Source: Patescibacteria group bacterium (GTDB lineage Bacteria > Patescibacteriota > WWE3 > JAMCXX01 > JBBTUG01). From it: a DNA stretch of 64,000 nucleotides. This document shows positions 3,638-56,538 of the stretch, one piece after another (the stretch's first letter is position 1; every line of letters starts with the position of its first letter). A model generated the notes under the pieces. That model searched no databases, had not been told where the DNA came from, and saw nothing but the letters and a program-made list of their open reading frames with translations. Made by a program: the position numbers and the translations under genes. Location of the stretch: positions 14,165-78,164 of the forward strand of contig JBBTUG010000012.1 in assembly GCA_038063895.1 (NCBI GenBank), read 5' to 3'.

Positions 3638-4819
3638 TCAAGACGAAACTTCGCGGGTAAAATCAACCCGCAGCGCCCTAACTCCCCGACGGTTTAGAAA
3701 AAGGCATACGGCAACTGCGGCAGACAAAACTAATGCCCCGAGCAAATAAATATGCCGGGTCTGAGAGAGACTGGAAAAGAAAAGCGCGGTTACAACGCCG
3801 ACATTTTCCGCGATCAATACCGACGCCGTCAAATAAGGAAGATATCGGCTTTCGGCAACATCACCAATTAAAGCTCCGATTATGGGCGAACTGCCACCGA
3901 GGGAAAGTAAGATAATCCCCAACAAATACCATGCAAGCGCCGTAGAAAAAAATAAAAGCAACAAGCCGACGCTGCTTGCGGCAAGAAGAATTATCAACAG
4001 CGGCAGCCGCCCTAATTTATCTGAGAGGGATCCGACGTAATAAGTTAACAGCAGAGGCACAATAAAAAACAAAGAGGTTAACGGCCCGACGTAAGAAAAT
4101 CCAAAGTTGTCTTTGATATCAAGCGGGATAAAACCGATGGCTAAACCGAAGGTAAAGTAGGAAGCCAAGAAGACGAAAGCCAGCTTGAGGGCGGTAGGGC
4201 TAGAGATGGTTTTTTTAATTAACAGCAGACTGCCCCCGTTTATTAGCACCTGGGTTTCCTTCAGTCGTAGGAGAAGTAATAATCCAAAAATAGGAAAAGT
4301 CGAAAAAAGCAAAAACGCCAAACTAAACGAGGCCTTTGCGGCGAGAAGTCCGAAAAGTGGTATTCCCAGTGACGTCCCTAAAACCAATAGCGTTCCGAAA
4401 AATCCGACATTTTTCCCGTAAGAGTTTTTAGGACTGATACTGATTAGATAACTGTTCTGCCCGGTCCAAAGGAGCGCCGCCGCGATCCCGAGAAGCGCTG
4501 AAAAAAGGTAAAGAAGCGCCGGAATTTTTAACCCGACGATTAAGATGAACATTCCGTAAACGGCCACGGCGTGGGTCATTGCTTTTTTCGGGCCGACGCG
4601 GGCAACAACCACAGGTGAAATTAAGCTACCCAAAATGAAGAAGAGGTAAATTATACTGAGCGAGAAATAGCCTAAACGGGGGAAGCCTGTAAGGAAAAAG
4701 TAATTAGTGAGATACTGCTGAATACTGTTGTAACCCAAGAAAATAAAAAAGAACCCAAAGCTTAACTTCTTAACGTCTTCGGAAAAATTAAAAAGACCCG
4801 TGATTTTCGACATCATCAC
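3638..4819 (-). CDS. MFS-type membrane transporter
   Basis: The 393-aa product is highly hydrophobic with about 12 predicted TM segments. Confidence 0.5.
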   Translation of the reverse strand: MMMSKITGLFNFSEDVKKLSFGFFFIFLGYNSIQQYLTNYFFLTGFPRLGYFSLSIIYLFFILGSLISPVVVARVGPKKAMTHAVAVYGMFILIVGLKIPALLYLFSALLGIAAALLWTGQNSYLISISPKNSYGKNVGFFGTLLVLGTSLGIPLFGLLAAKASFSLAFLLFSTFPIFGLLLLLRLKETQVLINGGSLLLIKKTISSPTALKLAFVFLASYFTFGLAIGFIPLDIKDNFGFSYVGPLTSLFFIVPLLLTYYVGSLSDKLGRLPLLIILLAASSVGLLLLFFSTALAWYLLGIILLSLGGSSPIIGALIGDVAESRYLPYLTASVLIAENVGVVTALFFSSLSQTRHIYLLGALVLSAAVAVCLFLNRRGVRALRVDFTREVSS

Positions 4820-5082
4820 CGACGGAAGTATTTCTCCCAGAAATTCCTAAAGAGAGGCAGGGTTAAGGTCGACAGGAGAAAACCGAGCGAGGGGACGACA
4901 GCATTAATCCACGGCCGGTCAACAGCAATAGCGCTAAAATATAAACCGATGGAAACGTATGTAAAAATAATCAGTAAAGCCCGCCGTGGAAGACTCGTCT
5001 CCCAAGCTTTATCCGTTTCCACCCTTTTGTTCCTATCCTCAACGGCTGTCAGACGTTTGGCTAATTCTTCCAACGTTTCCAT
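4816..5082 (-). CDS. small membrane protein, hypothetical
   Basis: The 88-aa product has 2 TM segments. It overlaps the downstream MFS gene by ATGA (translational coupling). Confidence 0.35.
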   Translation of the reverse strand: METLEELAKRLTAVEDRNKRVETDKAWETSLPRRALLIIFTYVSIGLYFSAIAVDRPWINAVVPSLGFLLSTLTLPLFRNFWEKYFRR

Positions 5083-31394: not shown

Positions 31395-31727
31395 TTAGTG
31401 TCTTTCTTTATTTGTTATTCTTTCATCGAGATATTTCATCGTATTCAAAAACTCTTTTTCTATATCTACGTTGTATTTGGAAGCTAGCACAAGTAAAGAC
31501 CACAAACAATCTGAAAGTTCATGCGCCAACTCCTTATCTACGTCCTTGTCTCCAAGCTGCCTATACCCCTCCTTTGCCATTACTATTTTCATTAGTGCCC
31601 CTACATCACCTACAAATCCTTCCATTACTTGTTCTCTCCCCCACGCGGCACCGTATAACTCTTCCTCGAGTTTGTGGTATTTTTCCCTGACTTCAATACC
31701 CCTATCAATTAATTTTCGTAGTTCCAT
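31395..31727 (-). CDS. MazG-like nucleotide pyrophosphohydrolase
   Basis: The product has a MazG-domain pattern (EExE..., LGDVLWSL-like DCLWSLLVLA). Confidence 0.65.
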   Translation of the reverse strand: MELRKLIDRGIEVREKYHKLEEELYGAAWGREQVMEGFVGDVGALMKIVMAKEGYRQLGDKDVDKELAHELSDCLWSLLVLASKYNVDIEKEFLNTMKYLDERITNKERH

Positions 31728-31780
31728 AGATTAATCATAACAAATTTTCCTATATAACCAAACATCAGCTATTAAATATG

Positions 31781-31810
31781 TGGCTAGGGGATTTGGATTC
31801 GGTCACGGAT
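31781..31810 (-). repeat. degenerate direct copy of the tRNA-Gln 3' end (T-arm plus acceptor)
   Basis: tggctaggggatttggattcggtcacggat matches tggctgcggggcgtggattcggaccacgatc (31873-31903) at about 80% identity with one indel, in the same orientation. Confidence 0.4.
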
Positions 31811-31872
31811 AAAAATCTGCTGATTTTTTCCTCGACTCCTCCTCCCCTTCAGATCACAGAACTACCGAAAGA

Positions 31873-31947
31873 TGGCTGCGGGGCGTGGATTCGGACCACG
31901 ATCTCCGGTTTCAGAGACCGGCGATACTACCGTTGATCTACCCCGCA
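31873..31947 (-). tRNA. tRNA-Gln (anticodon CUG)
   Basis: The minus strand reads UGCGGGG-UA-GAUC..., with anticodon stem CCGGU/ACCGG and loop CUCUGAA. The T-arm is CGUGG-UCCGAAU-CCACG, the acceptor is fully paired, the discriminator is G and CCA is encoded. It is 75 nt with a 3-bp D-stem, as in many tRNA-Gln. The T-loop UCCGAAU is slightly unusual. Confidence 0.7.
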
Positions 31948-32837
31948 ATACACCTGAACTTTCTGAAAAATATCAACTTTTCAAACCTTCTAACTTCGGC
32001 CCTCTTTCTCAATCTCGTGGCTATATTTCGGTACTCCGGATGATAGTTTAACATTTCCAAGGCCTTACCAACATCTTTAAGAAGTTTCGGATTCCGATTC
32101 GCGAATTGGAAGTTATAAGTGCAGGTTGGTAAATGCACCGACAACGACCCCTCCGCCTCGAATAAACCTTTTAGTATCCAGACTAAGTACATCTCGGATT
32201 TCCAAGCCCAATAGGGAATTCCCGTTTCTGATTTCCCTCTGTCACCGGAAGAAATACCAAGACGCTCTGAAATTTGCTTCTGGTAAATCCGCCACTTAAC
32301 TCCGTTTCCTTTCCTAGCCAATGCCGGGGTTTTACTAAAAAAATGTTGCATCAGTTTTTTGGTGTAGTTAACAAGTTTCGGATACTTTACATTAAGAGCA
32401 ATCGTTAGTGACTCTGTGCGCGGAAATTTCTGAATGTGCCCATCGCCTAAAACTAAACCAATTAGAAAGGCCAGCTCTTTAGACCTTCTAAAGGACGGAT
32501 ACTTGTTGCGGATAAAGCCCTTTTTAATCATTTTAGTCCTCCAACGCGCGAAATTGTCGATGTGCCGCTTTCTCATCGTCTCGGAAATTTTTAGAACCCC
32601 CGGGTGAGTGTCCTTAGTAAAACCTGTACTCCAAGAAACGTTTCTCCCCTCAAGGCTTTTTCGCCACTTTTGGTAAAGACTGCTGGTTTTTGGATAAAGA
32701 CACGGCGGGGTGGCAAACCTAATGCTTTGCGAAGGAAACAAGACTTTATAAGCCCTAGGGCTCAACTGGTGTTTAGATTTTAGATGGGTGCTGGAGATAA
32801 TACCAAATTTTTGGTGACAAAGCCGGCAAATAACCAT
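31938..32837 (-). CDS. LAGLIDADG homing endonuclease with N-terminal C2H2-like zinc finger
   Basis: Two LAGLIDADG motifs are present (LIGLVLGDGHI and LKGLFEAEGSLS), so the protein is double-motif and monomeric. The N-terminus reads CRLCHQKFGIISSTHLKSKH. The 3' end overlaps the tRNA-Gln 5' end by about 10 nt. Confidence 0.8.
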   Translation of the reverse strand: MVICRLCHQKFGIISSTHLKSKHQLSPRAYKVLFPSQSIRFATPPCLYPKTSSLYQKWRKSLEGRNVSWSTGFTKDTHPGVLKISETMRKRHIDNFARWRTKMIKKGFIRNKYPSFRRSKELAFLIGLVLGDGHIQKFPRTESLTIALNVKYPKLVNYTKKLMQHFFSKTPALARKGNGVKWRIYQKQISERLGISSGDRGKSETGIPYWAWKSEMYLVWILKGLFEAEGSLSVHLPTCTYNFQFANRNPKLLKDVGKALEMLNYHPEYRNIATRLRKRAEVRRFEKLIFFRKFRCIAG

Positions 32838-32967
32838 ATTTCTACCACCTAGACGATCACCATCATATTAGCATAAACTAAGTGGAAAATACATTCTCCT
32901 GATAATTAACTACTTGACAGCCAACCATAACATATATATAGTTATCTATACGTTAATTGAGGAAAAT

Positions 32968-34251
32968 ATGGGTGAGGCTTTAAAAAGATTTAGGAAAAAT
33001 CCGCTGCAGGTGTTATTTTTTACCGTCTTTCTGGACATGGTCCGGTTCGGAATTCTAATTCCCGTCATTCCCGAGCTTTTAGCTAACCCGCATTCTCCTT
33101 ATTTTCTCCTCCCCCACGGACTAACAATTCAAAATGGCTATATCCTTTTAGGCTTTCTCACCGCCGTTTTTCCTTTAGCACAATTTTTCGCGACCCCGAT
33201 CTTCGGCCAATTATCGGATGTTTACGGACGTAAAAAACTACTGGTCATTTCTTTGGCCGGAACTTTTATCTCTTATCTTCTCTTCGCCTACGGAATTTTA
33301 ACCCGGAACTTGGGCTTACTGTTTTTTTCCCGCGCAGTGGACGGAGTGACAGGCGGGAATATTTCCGTCGCCCAAGCGGCCATCGCCGACGTGACCACTC
33401 CCGAAAACCGGGCAAAGAATTTTGGGATGATTGGAGCGGCTTTTGGTCTGGGATTTATCCTCGGCCCCTATATCGGCGGCAAGCTTTCCGACCCGTCGGT
33501 GCTGCCATTTTTCGACGCCACGACGCCTTTTTGGTTCGCCGCCGGACTAAGCTTACTAAATACTCTTTCCGTTATATTTTTCTTCCCGGAAACTTTAAAA
33601 CACGCTAAAGCTAAACTGGAACTGCGGATAACCGATTCCGTCCGAAATATCGCCAAGGCCTTTTCGCTGAAAGAAATCCGTCCCCTCTTTTTAACTTCCC
33701 TTCTTTTCCAGGGCGGCTTTACCTTTTTCGCAACATTCTTTCCGATCTTTTTAATCAACCGGTTCGCCTTTACGCAGGGTAACATCGGCGACTTATTTTC
33801 CTACATGGGCCTTTGGATTGCTTTTACCCAAGCGTTCATCACCCGCAAAATCGCCGCCCGTTACCGGGAAGACGAAACTTTAAAAATTACGCTTTTCGGA
33901 GTCAGTTTTGCCGTCTTAATATACTTTTTCCCGCATTCCTGGTGGCAACTGCTATTTATCGTCCCACTTATGGCCATCTTTAACGGCTTATCCAACGTCA
34001 ACCTGACAGGCCTTATTAGCCGCTCCGTTGGACCGAAAATCCAAGGCGAAATATTGGGAATTAACGCCAGTGTCCAGGCTTTAGCGCAAGCCATCCCCCC
34101 AATCCTTTCCGGCTACATCGCTGCGTCGCTAACGCCATCCACCCCGATTTTAGTTTCATCTTTCGTCCTTCTTTTAGCCGGACTGGCTTTCGTTTTCTTT
34201 TACCGTCCAGCTGCTAAAATTCATCCGGCTTTCCAGCCTACTTCAACTTGA
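32968..34251 (+). CDS. MFS transporter (TetA/DHA1-like)
   Basis: The product has MFS motif A GQLSDVYGRKKLL and 12 TM segments. SD GAGGAAAAT precedes ATG at 32968. TTGACA/TATATA promoter-like boxes lie at 32913-32940. Confidence 0.75.
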   Translation: MGEALKRFRKNPLQVLFFTVFLDMVRFGILIPVIPELLANPHSPYFLLPHGLTIQNGYILLGFLTAVFPLAQFFATPIFGQLSDVYGRKKLLVISLAGTFISYLLFAYGILTRNLGLLFFSRAVDGVTGGNISVAQAAIADVTTPENRAKNFGMIGAAFGLGFILGPYIGGKLSDPSVLPFFDATTPFWFAAGLSLLNTLSVIFFFPETLKHAKAKLELRITDSVRNIAKAFSLKEIRPLFLTSLLFQGGFTFFATFFPIFLINRFAFTQGNIGDLFSYMGLWIAFTQAFITRKIAARYREDETLKITLFGVSFAVLIYFFPHSWWQLLFIVPLMAIFNGLSNVNLTGLISRSVGPKIQGEILGINASVQALAQAIPPILSGYIAASLTPSTPILVSSFVLLLAGLAFVFFYRPAAKIHPAFQPTST

Positions 34252-55971: not shown

Positions 55972-56354
55972 AACGATGAGAAAATAAATAAATCTTATCT
56001 TTATTATAATTTCCTTCTTGTTGATTTAATAATCTAACAATTATTATAGCACTTTTCTTTGGTGTCAACAAATAACAAACTTTTGTTTTTTCTTAAACTT
56101 TGTATAGCGTAATTGTACTCAAACGATATTTCGGATTTTTAATGCCCACTTTGGACAGATCCGAAAGGGTTTGACTTCAACAAGGTGCTCATCTAAATTA
56201 ATAAAAAGTTCTTTAATTTTTGCGTTTTTCTTTGGAACAACGCTCTATGAGAAATTGCTTGTTAGAGCCGACTTTTTTGGGAACGCGGCGAGTGAGGAGG
56301 GGCACCGCGCAACAGTTGGTAGTGCCGCACCTAACGATTTCGCAATTTCCCAAA

Positions 56355-56429
56355 TGGTGCCGCCACGGGGAATCGAACCCCGGTTACCGGATTGAGAATC
56401 CGACGTCCTAACCCCTAGACGATGGCGGC
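56355..56429 (-). tRNA. tRNA-Glu (anticodon CUC)
   Basis: The minus strand reads GCCGCCA-UC-GUCU-AGGGGUUA-GGAC-G-UCGGA-UUCUCAA-UCCGG-UAAC-CGGGG-UUCGAUU-CCCCG-UGGCGGC-A-CCA. It is 75 nt with a 4-nt variable loop, and the acceptor is fully paired. Confidence 0.8.
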
Positions 56430-56538
56430 ATGTTACTAATTTACCGCTATTATACACTAAAATCAGAAACCCCCATGTGAAAGTTGAATAGAAATACTCG
56501 ATTTGCATCCGCTAATATTTAAGTCCAATATATATTTG

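What the first reader, a model, noticed from the sequence alone, without database searches (positions are those of the whole stretch)
31770..32840. Free-standing LAGLIDADG homing endonuclease with C2H2-like zinc finger abutting tRNA-Gln, plus a degenerate duplicate of the tRNA 3' end
The 299-aa ORF carries two LAGLIDADG motifs (LIGLVLGDGHI, LKGLFEAEGSLS) and an N-terminal CxxC-x12-HxxxxH finger. Its stop overlaps the 5' end of tRNA-Gln(CUG) on the same strand. About 60 nt beyond the tRNA 3' end there is a roughly 80%-identical copy of the tRNA T-arm/acceptor 3' segment (31781-31810). That is the kind of direct repeat left by site-specific integration into a tRNA gene, though here only a scar-sized interval separates the repeats. 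Free-standing bacterial LAGLIDADG genes are uncommon, since most sit in introns or inteins. This locus may be a remnant of a mobile element, or a homing-endonuclease gene that targets the tRNA-Gln region.
Basis: partly seen in the sequence, partly recalled or inferred. Interest (0 to 1): 0.55.

Follow-up and report, generated by a model that had tools for sequence, protein, structure and literature searches.

The report
Homing-endonuclease cassette that overwrote a tRNA gene
A selfish DNA-cutting enzyme gene, travelling with its own spare tRNA-Gln gene, has split and replaced this bacterium's original tRNA-Gln gene; the same gene-plus-tRNA pairing recurs in every related locus examined, which points to an undescribed way for mobile DNA to invade an essential RNA gene without splicing.

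Summary
A 299-aa two-motif LAGLIDADG ORF (31938-32837, minus strand) ends inside tRNA-Gln(CUG) (31873-31947), and a decayed copy of the tRNA 3' end lies about 62 nt beyond it.

The context changes the reading:
- In 89 of 89 related Patescibacteria loci with room to judge, this protein family sits directly 5' of tRNA-Gln(CUG), whatever the flanking genes.
- Close relatives of this organism (neighbouring MFS protein 87-90% identical, syntenic DNA) carry tRNA-Gln(CUG) at the same spot with no endonuclease gene. This is an empty site.
- The decayed 3' copy, together with a decayed 5' copy I found just upstream of the ORF (32842-32863), matches the relatives' native tRNA rather than the window's working tRNA.
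- The working tRNA instead resembles tRNAs linked to the closest endonuclease homologs.

So a roughly 1 kb cassette (endonuclease gene, whole foreign tRNA, spacer) replaced the middle of the resident tRNA gene and is read from that gene's old promoter.

Most related loci keep the 5' fragment, always ending at tRNA nt 21-24. That suggests, without proving, cleavage in the D-arm.

A sister family sits the same way on tRNA-Ser. I found no published description. Endonuclease activity, the cut site and self-immunity are inferred only.

The parts
32865..32873 (-). Native tRNA-Gln promoter, an extended -10 element (TGCTAATAT). It now lies upstream of the endonuclease gene.
   Evidence: It aligns with AGTTcgTGGTAAAAT in L101 and AGTTcgTGATAGAAT in L103, which lie just upstream of the intact native tRNA in the syntenic empty sites. 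Function is inferred.
32842..32863 (-). Decayed 5' fragment of the displaced resident tRNA-Gln(CUG), nt 1 to about 22: ATGGTGATCGTCTAGGTGGTAG. It ends 4 nt before the ATG and contains an SD-like AGGTGG.
   Evidence: It is the best non-tRNA hit in the whole window, both strands, for a matrix built from other loci's 5' fragments (10.1 bits, next best 6.3). It aligns to t101 nt 3-21 (score 18, shuffle p = 0.024). Its acceptor type TGG(G)GGA matches the relatives' native tRNA, not the window's working tRNA.
31938..32837 (-). LAGLIDADG homing-endonuclease gene, 299 aa plus stop. The stop TAG is tRNA nt 8-10.
   Evidence: The predicted fold resembles I-DmoI (pLDDT 87.5). PDB profile hit to I-DmoI at 1.7e-5.
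32769..32828 (-). N-terminal C2H2-type zinc finger, residues 4-23 (C4, C7, H18, H23).
   Evidence: Conserved as CxLCxxxFxxITNTHLxxxH in full-length family members. Weak Pfam ROS/MucR hit. The model shows a beta-hairpin plus helix 16-23. Some lineages lack it.
32439..32471 (-). LAGLIDADG motif 1, residues 123-133, with catalytic D132.
   Evidence: G127, G131, D132 and G133 are invariant in 28 diverse members.
32139..32174 (-). LAGLIDADG motif 2, residues 222-233, with catalytic E229.
   Evidence: G224, A228, E229 and G230 are invariant in 28 diverse members.
31873..31947 (-). Intact working tRNA-Gln(CUG) with encoded CCA. It came in with the cassette and is foreign to this lineage.
   Evidence: It is 85-88% identical to tRNAs linked to the nearest endonuclease homologs, but only 68-69% identical to the native tRNAs of the closest genomic relatives (ranks 78 and 81).
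31811..31872 (-). Spacer brought in with the cassette, lying between the foreign tRNA and the old 3' fragment.
   Evidence: It has no homology to the relatives or to other cassettes. Spacers of 31-97 nt occupy the same position in L023, L039, L096 and L100.
31781..31810 (-). Decayed 3' fragment of the displaced resident tRNA-Gln(CUG), about nt 44-75 plus CCA.
   Evidence: Its acceptor strand TCCCCTA matches the relatives' native TCCCCCA, not the working tRNA's CCCCGCA.

Best explanation
The locus is a homing-endonuclease cassette that invaded and overwrote the resident tRNA-Gln(CUG) gene.

Shown:
- A roughly 1.03 kb block now sits between the first ~22 nt and the last ~30 nt of the original tRNA gene. 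The block holds a two-motif LAGLIDADG gene with an N-terminal zinc finger, a complete foreign tRNA-Gln(CUG) abutting the ORF's 3' end, and about 60 nt of spacer.
- The original gene's anticodon arm is gone.
- Close relatives have the uninterrupted native tRNA at the same site.
- The endonuclease family is always linked to tRNA-Gln(CUG).

Inferred mechanism:
- The enzyme cuts uninvaded tRNA-Gln(CUG) genes in the D-arm, near nt 21-24. This is the position where the left junction falls in every clade.
- The break is repaired from a cassette-bearing copy. Pairing is through the tRNA 5' segment on the left. On the right it is either the tRNA 3' part or an illegitimate join.
- Because the cassette supplies a whole working tRNA, the essential gene is replaced rather than lost, so no intron or intein splicing is needed.
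- The endonuclease gene is read from the old tRNA promoter. The tRNA is probably made from the same transcript, which would make silencing the selfish gene costly.
- Self-cleavage is probably avoided because cassette tRNAs carry different D-arm sequences.
For: Linkage. In 89 of 89 loci with at least 90 nt of room downstream (61 distinct modules), tRNA-Gln(CUG) lies on the same strand and starts -7 to +30 nt from the end of the endonuclease match. Outer flanking genes differ between loci.

Presence or absence.
- Six of nine species-representative genome loci with near-identical tRNA-Gln(CUG) have no endonuclease gene in the sequence directly upstream, of which three have over 1 kb of upstream sequence.
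- In L101, L102 and L103 the MFS protein is 87-90% identical and 3.4-4.1 kb of DNA is syntenic at 75-82%. There the tRNA sits next to the MFS gene with no endonuclease gene.

Fragments.
- The window's 5' and 3' fragments match the relatives' native allele (TGGGGGA / TCCCCCA), in the correct order and orientation.
- The native promoter is conserved upstream.
- About 45 of 57 distinct loci have a 5' fragment ending at nt 21-24.
- Clear 3' fragments occur in L023, L100, L039 and L096.
- In L096 the 3' fragment fits the 5' fragment's acceptor type, not that of the working tRNA.

Co-transfer. tRNA identity tracks endonuclease identity (Spearman 0.65, p = 4e-7). The window's tRNA is least like those of its own relatives.

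Enzyme. Catalytic D132 and E229 are invariant. The fold resembles I-DmoI.

Not an intron. No ribozyme was found.

D-arm contrast. The core TCGTCTAATGGTAG, at one mismatch or fewer, occurs in 18 of 59 upstream fragments against 3 of 59 cassette tRNAs (Fisher p = 5e-4), and in 0 of 2759 control pieces. The native tRNAs at the empty sites carry this D-arm type.
Against: - No activity, cut site or transcript has been measured.
- The cassette's own tRNA is intact, so immunity is unexplained. The D-arm contrast disappears at two mismatches or fewer (28 against 19 of 59), and L091 carries the supposedly susceptible D-arm in its working tRNA.
- 3' fragments are rare: about 5 of 52 loci, and none in a strict search of 20 loci. 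The whole-tRNA-replacement picture is therefore directly shown only for a minority, the window included.
- The 5' fragment is more conserved than a dead remnant should be. It may have a function this model does not include.
- The window's fragments are individually weak.
- No carrier such as a phage was found.
- DNA left of the tRNA is rearranged among the window, L101 and L103, so synteny is solid on one side only.
Confidence: 0.75

Rival explanations
1. Domesticated partner. The LAGLIDADG protein is no longer selfish. It serves the adjacent tRNA, as a transcription regulator like WhiA or as an RNA-binding maturase-like factor, and the pair is a conserved operon.
For: Linkage is 100% and the spacing is very tight across proteins only 42-63% identical. 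The top structural match is WhiA. The 5' tRNA fragment next to the promoter is unusually conserved and could be an operator.
Against: Close relatives and other species manage without the protein. The native tRNA was destroyed and replaced by a foreign one. Both catalytic acidic residues are invariant, whereas, from my own knowledge, WhiA has lost them. There is no C-terminal HTH.
Confidence: 0.08
2. Relic passenger. An endonuclease gene inserted once, long ago, beside or within tRNA-Gln(CUG) in an ancestor. It has since been inherited vertically and lost repeatedly, and it no longer moves.
For: Some contexts are shared between loci: YkuD-Lon in L004 and L008, FtsX-ABC in L001 and L011. The window's fragments are decayed, so its insertion is not recent. 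No vector was found.
Against: Relatives at the empty site carry the native allele that matches the window's fragments, not the cassette allele. They therefore look uninvaded, not like lineages that lost the gene. Right-hand junctions and spacers differ between loci, implying independent insertions. L062 and L056 share a near-identical spacer (1 of 32 differences) but differ at 3 of 22 positions in the 5' fragment. ORFs are intact and catalytic residues kept in about 60 distinct loci.
Confidence: 0.1
3. Integrase-type integration scar. The tRNA 3' repeat marks the two ends of an element that integrated into the tRNA 3' end and was later almost wholly deleted. The endonuclease gene is an unrelated neighbour.
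For: A direct repeat of a tRNA 3' end is the classic signature. In relative L101 a serine-recombinase gene lies about 3.5 kb beyond the same tRNA.
Against: There is no integrase in or near the window's cassette. The partner of the 3' fragment is a 5' fragment on the other side of the endonuclease gene. Endonuclease and tRNA are linked in every locus. 5' fragments are far commoner than 3' ones.
Confidence: 0.03
4. Chance. The fragments are chance similarities in AT-rich intergenic DNA, and the gene-tRNA adjacency is coincidental.
For: The window-only alignment of the 3' copy is at chance level.
Against: Adjacency holds in 89 of 89 loci. The matrix rank for the 5' fragment is the best in the window. 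p = 0.0045 against an independent native allele. The core is found in 0 of 2759 control pieces.
Confidence: 0.02

Closest known systems
Free-standing and 'gene-within-gene' homing endonuclease genes of fungal mitochondria that bring a replacement piece of the host gene. Examples from my own knowledge: the Allomyces atp6 mobile ORF, and LAGLIDADG genes inside Ophiostoma rps3. A related case of partial foreign gene replacement with an N-terminal duplication in Tremella is summarised in PMC8393795.
   Same: An endonuclease gene lands inside an essential gene without an intron or intein. It carries a duplicate of the displaced host segment, so function is restored. The old piece remains as a decaying fragment, and foreign sequence is co-transferred.
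   Different: Here the host gene is a bacterial tRNA gene rather than an organellar protein gene. A complete gene is supplied rather than a terminal segment. The ORF abuts or overlaps the RNA gene, and the element uses the tRNA promoter.
Phage T4 SegB, a free-standing GIY-YIG homing endonuclease in the T4 tRNA gene cluster (PMC2330249).
   Same: A free-standing endonuclease gene embedded among tRNA genes. It promotes inheritance of its own tRNA region by cutting the rival genome ('intronless homing').
   Different: A different nuclease family, and phage-to-phage competition rather than a cellular chromosome. No split resident tRNA and no replacement-tRNA design.
LAGLIDADG endonucleases in the rRNA insertion sequences and introns of CPR bacteria, for example I-ShaI (PMC11270868).
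   Same: The same bacterial radiation, the same nuclease superfamily, and a conserved structural RNA gene as target. One member has been shown to cut its insertion site.
   Different: Those are mostly single-domain homodimeric enzymes inside intron-like insertions that interrupt the rRNA gene. This family is a two-motif monomer with a zinc finger, has no ribozyme, and replaces the RNA gene instead of interrupting it. That paper does not mention tRNA.
Integrase-mediated genomic islands and prophages that integrate into tRNA genes (general knowledge).
   Same: The tRNA gene is the landing site. The element carries tRNA sequence so that a working tRNA remains, and a displaced tRNA fragment is left as a direct repeat.
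   Different: No integrase. The carried part is the whole tRNA. The constant junction is in the D-arm on the 5' side rather than in the 3' half. The element is about 1 kb.
WhiA, a domesticated LAGLIDADG transcription factor (PDB 8dy7 and 3hyi).
   Same: Best structural match to the two-domain LAGLIDADG core.
   Different: The catalytic D and E are retained here. There is no C-terminal HTH, an N-terminal zinc finger is present, and distribution is sporadic.

Membership tests
LAGLIDADG homing endonucleases (monomeric, two-motif) | Two LAGLIDADG motifs, each ending in a catalytic acidic residue | tested here: met
   GDG (D132) and AEG (E229) are invariant in 28 diverse members. Pfam LAGLIDADG_3 at 8e-11.
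LAGLIDADG homing endonucleases (monomeric, two-motif) | Pseudo-symmetric alpha-beta-beta-alpha-beta-beta-alpha double-domain fold | tested here: met
   AlphaFold model with pLDDT 87.5. Foldseek matches to I-DmoI, I-Tsp061I, PI-PfuI and I-AniI at probability 1.00, target TM-score up to 0.71. PDB profile hit to I-DmoI at 1.7e-5.
LAGLIDADG homing endonucleases (monomeric, two-motif) | Site-specific double-strand cleavage of the uninterrupted target allele | not testable with these tools
   Needs a biochemical assay. Native alleles t101 and t103 are the candidate substrates.
Homing genetic element | Always at one defined site in a conserved host gene, with presence/absence polymorphism among relatives | tested here: met
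   89 of 89 loci linked. The left junction is constant at tRNA nt 21-24. Empty sites occur in syntenic relatives and in 6 of 9 genome loci.
Homing genetic element | Housed in a self-splicing intron or an intein | tested here: not met
   No ribozyme family reached E <= 1 in 31500-33000 or gathering score in the whole window. The ORF is free-standing with its own start. It is therefore a free-standing endonuclease gene.
Integrase-mediated tRNA-integrating element | Tyrosine or serine recombinase gene inside the element, bounded by direct repeats of the tRNA 3' end | tested here: not met
   The cassette holds only the endonuclease gene and a tRNA. The neighbouring genes encode MFS, NUDIX and a metal-sensing repressor. 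The bounding repeats are a 5' and a 3' tRNA fragment.
WhiA-like domesticated LAGLIDADG regulators | Loss of catalytic residues plus a C-terminal HTH; universal vertical inheritance within a clade | tested here: not met
   Catalytic residues are kept. Pfam LAGLIDADG_WhiA scores 19.7 bits, below its 23.2 cut-off. Distribution is sporadic.
C2H2 (ROS/MucR-like) zinc finger | CxxC ... H-x(3-5)-H ligands on a beta-beta-alpha fold | tested here: inconclusive
   Ligands C4, C7, H18 and H23 are conserved. The model shows a hairpin plus helix. Pfam ROS_MUCR reaches only E 0.081. Metal binding was not tested.

The most novel reading that the evidence does not exclude
CPR/Patescibacteria harbour a general, undescribed class of 'tRNA-overwriting' homing cassettes. 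Two-motif LAGLIDADG genes, with swappable N-terminal DNA-binding modules (zinc finger or HTH), each travel with a complete replacement tRNA. They cut the resident copy of that tRNA gene in the D-arm and substitute their own allele.

Different subfamilies would be specialised for different tRNAs: Gln-CUG here, and Ser-CGA/UGA in the sister family. Such elements would drive unusually fast turnover of tRNA sequences, including D-loop length variants acting as resistance alleles, and would couple their own expression to an essential tRNA promoter.
Probability: 0.45. Interest if true: 0.85.

Novelty: new variant of a known kind. Interest (0 to 1): 0.72.

Why it matters
Homing endonuclease genes are thought to survive inside essential genes by hiding in self-splicing introns or inteins. 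This locus shows a third route in bacteria: bring a whole spare copy of the target gene.

- It explains a widespread family of 'hypothetical' or 'LAGLIDADG' proteins in CPR genomes. Gene callers mis-start them; NCBI annotates this one at 197 aa.
- It offers natural enzymes with long recognition sites in tRNA genes.
- It suggests that selfish elements drive horizontal replacement of tRNA genes in these reduced genomes. That bears on tRNA identity evolution and on using tRNA genes as stable markers or integration sites.
- It gives concrete substrates, filled and empty alleles from close relatives, for a direct biochemical test.

Tried and rejected
- Window-only repeat statistics. The 3' copy against the window's own tRNA is at chance level. 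It was kept only because of comparative evidence.
- Intron or intein hypothesis. No ribozyme was found at gathering threshold or at E <= 1. NCBIfam gave only a meaningless intein-RtcB hit at E 0.04.
- Phage or plasmid vector. No tblastn hit in 50,697 phage records and none in IMG/VR viral contigs.
- Promoter or terminator inside the cassette. The simple scan found nothing beyond expectation. Third-codon-position entropy over the last 12 codons (1.31) is barely below the ORF mean (1.43), so there is no clear embedded tRNA promoter.
- Strict search for native 3' fragments complementary to the 5' fragment's acceptor. It gave 0 of 20 loci, so 3' fragments are a minority feature.
- Attachment-site-like tRNA repeat beyond the recombinase-bearing region of L101. 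None was found in the 4.8 kb available.
- tRNA-Ser 5' fragments upstream of the sister family. None was significant in 3 distinct loci.
- An endonuclease gene at the window's other tRNA (tRNA-Glu(CUC), 56355-56429). None is present.
- My genome-collection tRNA pattern excluded the 'susceptible' D-arm type by design.
Full report
**1. What is in the window**

On the minus strand, ORF 31938..32837 encodes 299 aa. Pfam assigns LAGLIDADG_3 (E 8e-11), plus a weak ROS/MucR zinc-finger hit at residues 2-32.

ARAGORN and Rfam both find tRNA-Gln(CUG) at 31873..31947 on the same strand. CCA is encoded. The ORF's TAG stop is tRNA positions 8-10.

Judged only against the window's own tRNA, the copy is not significant. 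A local-alignment score of 19 is reached by 7% of shuffles and 11% of window tiles.

**2. The protein belongs to a family that is always glued to this tRNA**

- A search of 5.8 billion proteins found 215 relatives. Every one that carries an organism name is from Patescibacteria (CPR). Most are 296-300 aa and 42-63% identical.
- NCBI annotates the window's own copy as only 197 aa. Conservation of the N-terminal 100 residues across homologs supports the long form.
- Six independent genomic contexts with different neighbouring genes all had tRNA-Gln(CUG) directly after the ORF.
- A metagenome scan added 80 loci. Combining tblastn with ARAGORN over all loci, 89 of 89 with at least 90 nt of room (61 distinct modules) have tRNA-Gln(CUG) on the same strand, starting -7 to +30 nt from the end of the protein match.
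- In 33 of 61 distinct modules the stop codon lies inside or beyond the tRNA. In 15 of them it is the tRNA's U8-A9-G10, as in the window.
- Both catalytic acidic residues (D132, E229) are invariant in 28 diverse members.
- The AlphaFold model (pLDDT 87.5) matches I-DmoI and other monomeric LAGLIDADG enzymes, and also WhiA. A PDB profile search gives I-DmoI at 1.7e-5.
- No ribozyme is present.

**3. The gene is an insertion**

A scan of one genome per species for near-identical tRNA-Gln(CUG) sequences returned nine loci:
- three carry the endonuclease gene;
- three clearly lack it, with more than 1 kb of other sequence upstream;
- three more have 72-156 nt of promoter-like, non-coding sequence upstream.

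The decisive comparison comes from the gene next door. The divergently oriented MFS transporter (32968-34251) has orthologs 87-92% identical.

Contigs L101/L102 and L103, whose MFS proteins are 87% and 90% identical, are syntenic with the window for 3.4-4.1 kb from 32902/32914 rightwards at 75-82% nucleotide identity. They carry tRNA-Gln(CUG) on the opposite strand right next to MFS, with no endonuclease gene.

These are empty sites.

**4. The repeat explained**

The native tRNAs at the empty sites, t101 and t103, have acceptor stems TGGGGGA/TCCCCCA or TTGGGGG/CCCCCAA, and D-arm TCG(G/T)CTAA(T/C)GGTAGG. The window's working tRNA has TGCGGGG/CCCCGCA and D-arm TAGATCAACGGTAGTATC.

| Item | Evidence |
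|---|---|
With t101 as an independent query it scores 22, shuffle p = 0.0045, reached by 7 of 1428 window tiles. |
| New 5' fragment, ATGGTGATCGTCTAGGTGGTAG, 32842-32863, 4 nt upstream of the ATG | Found only after other loci showed what to look for. Best non-tRNA hit in the window on either strand for a matrix built from other loci's 5' fragments (10.1 bits, next best 6.3). Aligns to t101 nt 3-21 (p = 0.024). |
| TGCTAATAT, 32865-32873, just upstream of the 5' fragment | Aligns with the extended -10 element in front of the native tRNA in L101 and L103. |

The window therefore reads, on the minus strand:
1. native promoter
2. native tRNA nt 1 to about 22
3. endonuclease gene
4. complete foreign tRNA
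5. about 62 nt of spacer
6. native tRNA nt about 44-75

The native anticodon arm is missing.

The working tRNA is 85-88% identical to tRNAs linked to the closest endonuclease homologs (L004, L021, L048). It is only 68-69% identical to t101 and t103, which rank 81 and 78 in the comparison set. Across loci, tRNA identity tracks endonuclease identity (Spearman 0.65, p = 4e-7).

**5. The pattern across the family**

*5' fragments.* About 45 of 57 distinct loci have a recognisable 5' fragment (consensus TGCGGGGTCGTCTAATGGTAGG) upstream of the ORF, always ending at tRNA nt 21-24. What follows depends on the clade:
- In one clade it is followed, about 18 nt on, by TGnTATAAT, with the ATG 6-7 nt after that. 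This suggests a leaderless mRNA.
- In another clade the D-loop TGGTA is fused into TGGTATAAT.

*3' fragments.* Clear ones lie 31-97 nt beyond the working tRNA in L023 (17/17), L100 (19/21), L039 and L096. They are a minority: about 5 of 52 loci, and none in a strict search of 20. Their start points vary from nt 44 to 56.

In L096 the 3' fragment fits the 5' fragment's acceptor type, not that of the working tRNA.

*Reading of the junctions.* A constant left junction, with variable right junctions and variable spacers, suggests a site-specific break near nt 21-24. It also suggests independent right-hand joins, and probably frequent later loss of the 3' repeat by recombination with the working tRNA's identical end. 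This is inference.

**6. How it most likely works**

*Shown:* cassette structure, polymorphism, foreign tRNA, and retention of the catalytic residues.

*Inferred:*
- The enzyme cuts uninvaded tRNA-Gln(CUG) genes in the D-arm.
- Repair copies the cassette from a filled allele.
- The accompanying tRNA replaces the destroyed gene, so no splicing is needed.
- Transcription comes from the captured tRNA promoter, and the tRNA is released from the same transcript.

*Immunity of the cassette's own tRNA* may rest on D-arm differences. The core TCGTCTAATGGTAG, at one mismatch or fewer, occurs in 18 of 59 upstream fragments, 3 of 59 cassette tRNAs (Fisher p = 5e-4) and 0 of 2759 control pieces. Many cassette tRNAs also have D-loop length variants.

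This support is weak. At two mismatches or fewer the contrast vanishes, and L091 is an exception.

**7. Open points**

- The 5' fragment is at least 80% conserved at about 19 of 22 columns in a clade whose proteins are only 62% identical. That is too well kept for a dead remnant.
  - It may be resampled from susceptible native genes at each invasion, in which case it reports the enzyme's left half-site.
  - Or it may be selected, as an operator, a homology arm or a 5' UTR.
  - L062 and L056 have a near-identical spacer (1 of 32 differences) but differ at 3 of 22 positions in the 5' fragment. This favours resampling.
- I found no clear tRNA promoter inside the ORF's 3' end.
- No phage or viral carrier was found.

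**8. Comparison with what is known**

| Known system | Relation to this locus |
|---|---|
| Fungal mitochondrial endonuclease genes that land inside protein genes and bring a replacement segment (my own knowledge for Allomyces atp6 and Ophiostoma rps3; a related Tremella case is summarised in PMC8393795) | Closest analogy in logic. |
| Phage T4 SegB (PMC2330249) | A free-standing endonuclease among tRNA genes, but GIY-YIG and phage-borne. |
| CPR rRNA insertions encoding LAGLIDADG enzymes, e.g. I-ShaI (PMC11270868) | Mostly single-domain and intron-housed. That paper never mentions tRNA. |

Seven literature searches found no description of a LAGLIDADG-tRNA cassette in bacteria. The library lacks most subscription journals, so this is absence of evidence only.

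**9. A sister family**

The family proper is small: 59 clusters at 50% identity with E <= 1e-30. It sits inside a much larger set of related LAGLIDADG_3 proteins with other N-termini, 1183 clusters at E <= 1e-10.

I sampled one such family. It has an HTH-type N-terminus and is about 330-340 aa long. In 3 of 3 distinct loci its ORF overlaps the 5' end of a tRNA-Ser gene, CGA or UGA, in the same way. I saw no upstream tRNA-Ser fragments.

This hints that the design is general.

**10. Verdict**

The best description is a homing-endonuclease cassette that overwrote the resident tRNA-Gln(CUG) gene with its own copy. This is a new variant of a known kind of element. Biochemical proof of cleavage and of the cut site is still missing.

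Noticed in passing
L105 2501-3567; L106/L107 2501-3571; L108 1192-2262; L109 2501-3566: A sister LAGLIDADG_3 family (HTH-type N-terminus, about 330-340 aa) overlaps the 5' end of tRNA-Ser(CGA or UGA) in 3 of 3 distinct loci, with its stop codon in the tRNA D-arm. This suggests tRNA-specific subfamilies of the same design.
   Followed up: partly
window 31938-32837 (-): The public annotation of this very gene (P0001, NCBI) is only 197 aa, starting at an internal Met. Conservation of the N-terminal zinc finger and linker across homologs supports the 299-aa form.
   Followed up: yes
L101 24-4569, beyond the 3' end of its tRNA-Gln(CUG) at 4810-4883: In the empty-site relative, the DNA beyond the tRNA 3' end carries a large serine recombinase, an HTH_3 protein and small unknown genes. 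This looks like a different mobile element at the same tRNA. No attachment-site-like repeat was found in the 4.8 kb available.
   Followed up: partly
L101 4810-4883 vs L103 4795-4868: The native tRNA-Gln(CUG) genes of two close relatives are only 77% identical, with compensated stem changes, while their MFS proteins are 85% identical. This is unusually fast tRNA divergence and may reflect past cassette replacements.
   Followed up: no
downstream of the tRNA or its 3' fragment in L004, L005/L019, L008, L039, L100: A recurrent motif follows the tRNA 3' end: AGACG(G/T)GCAC, and later GACCGA(A/G)(A/G)TGCC. It may be a conserved native downstream element. Its function is unknown.
   Followed up: no
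L059, L064, L083, L062, L056, L076, L086, L008, L063 (working tRNAs): Cassette-borne tRNA-Gln genes show many D-loop length variants (AATTGG, AATTTGGG, AACCCGG, AACTTGG) compared with AATGG in the 5' fragments and native alleles. These may be resistance alleles.
   Followed up: partly
window 56355-56429 (-): The window's second tRNA, tRNA-Glu(CUC), has no LAGLIDADG gene upstream. An 87-aa ORF overlapping it (56245-56508) is probably spurious.
   Followed up: yes
L005, L034, L039, L045, L073, L078, L087 and others (match starts at query residue 34-68): Several lineages have shorter proteins (about 230-275 aa) that lack the zinc finger but keep the 5' tRNA fragment just upstream. The finger is therefore dispensable for persistence of the cassette.
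   Followed up: partly
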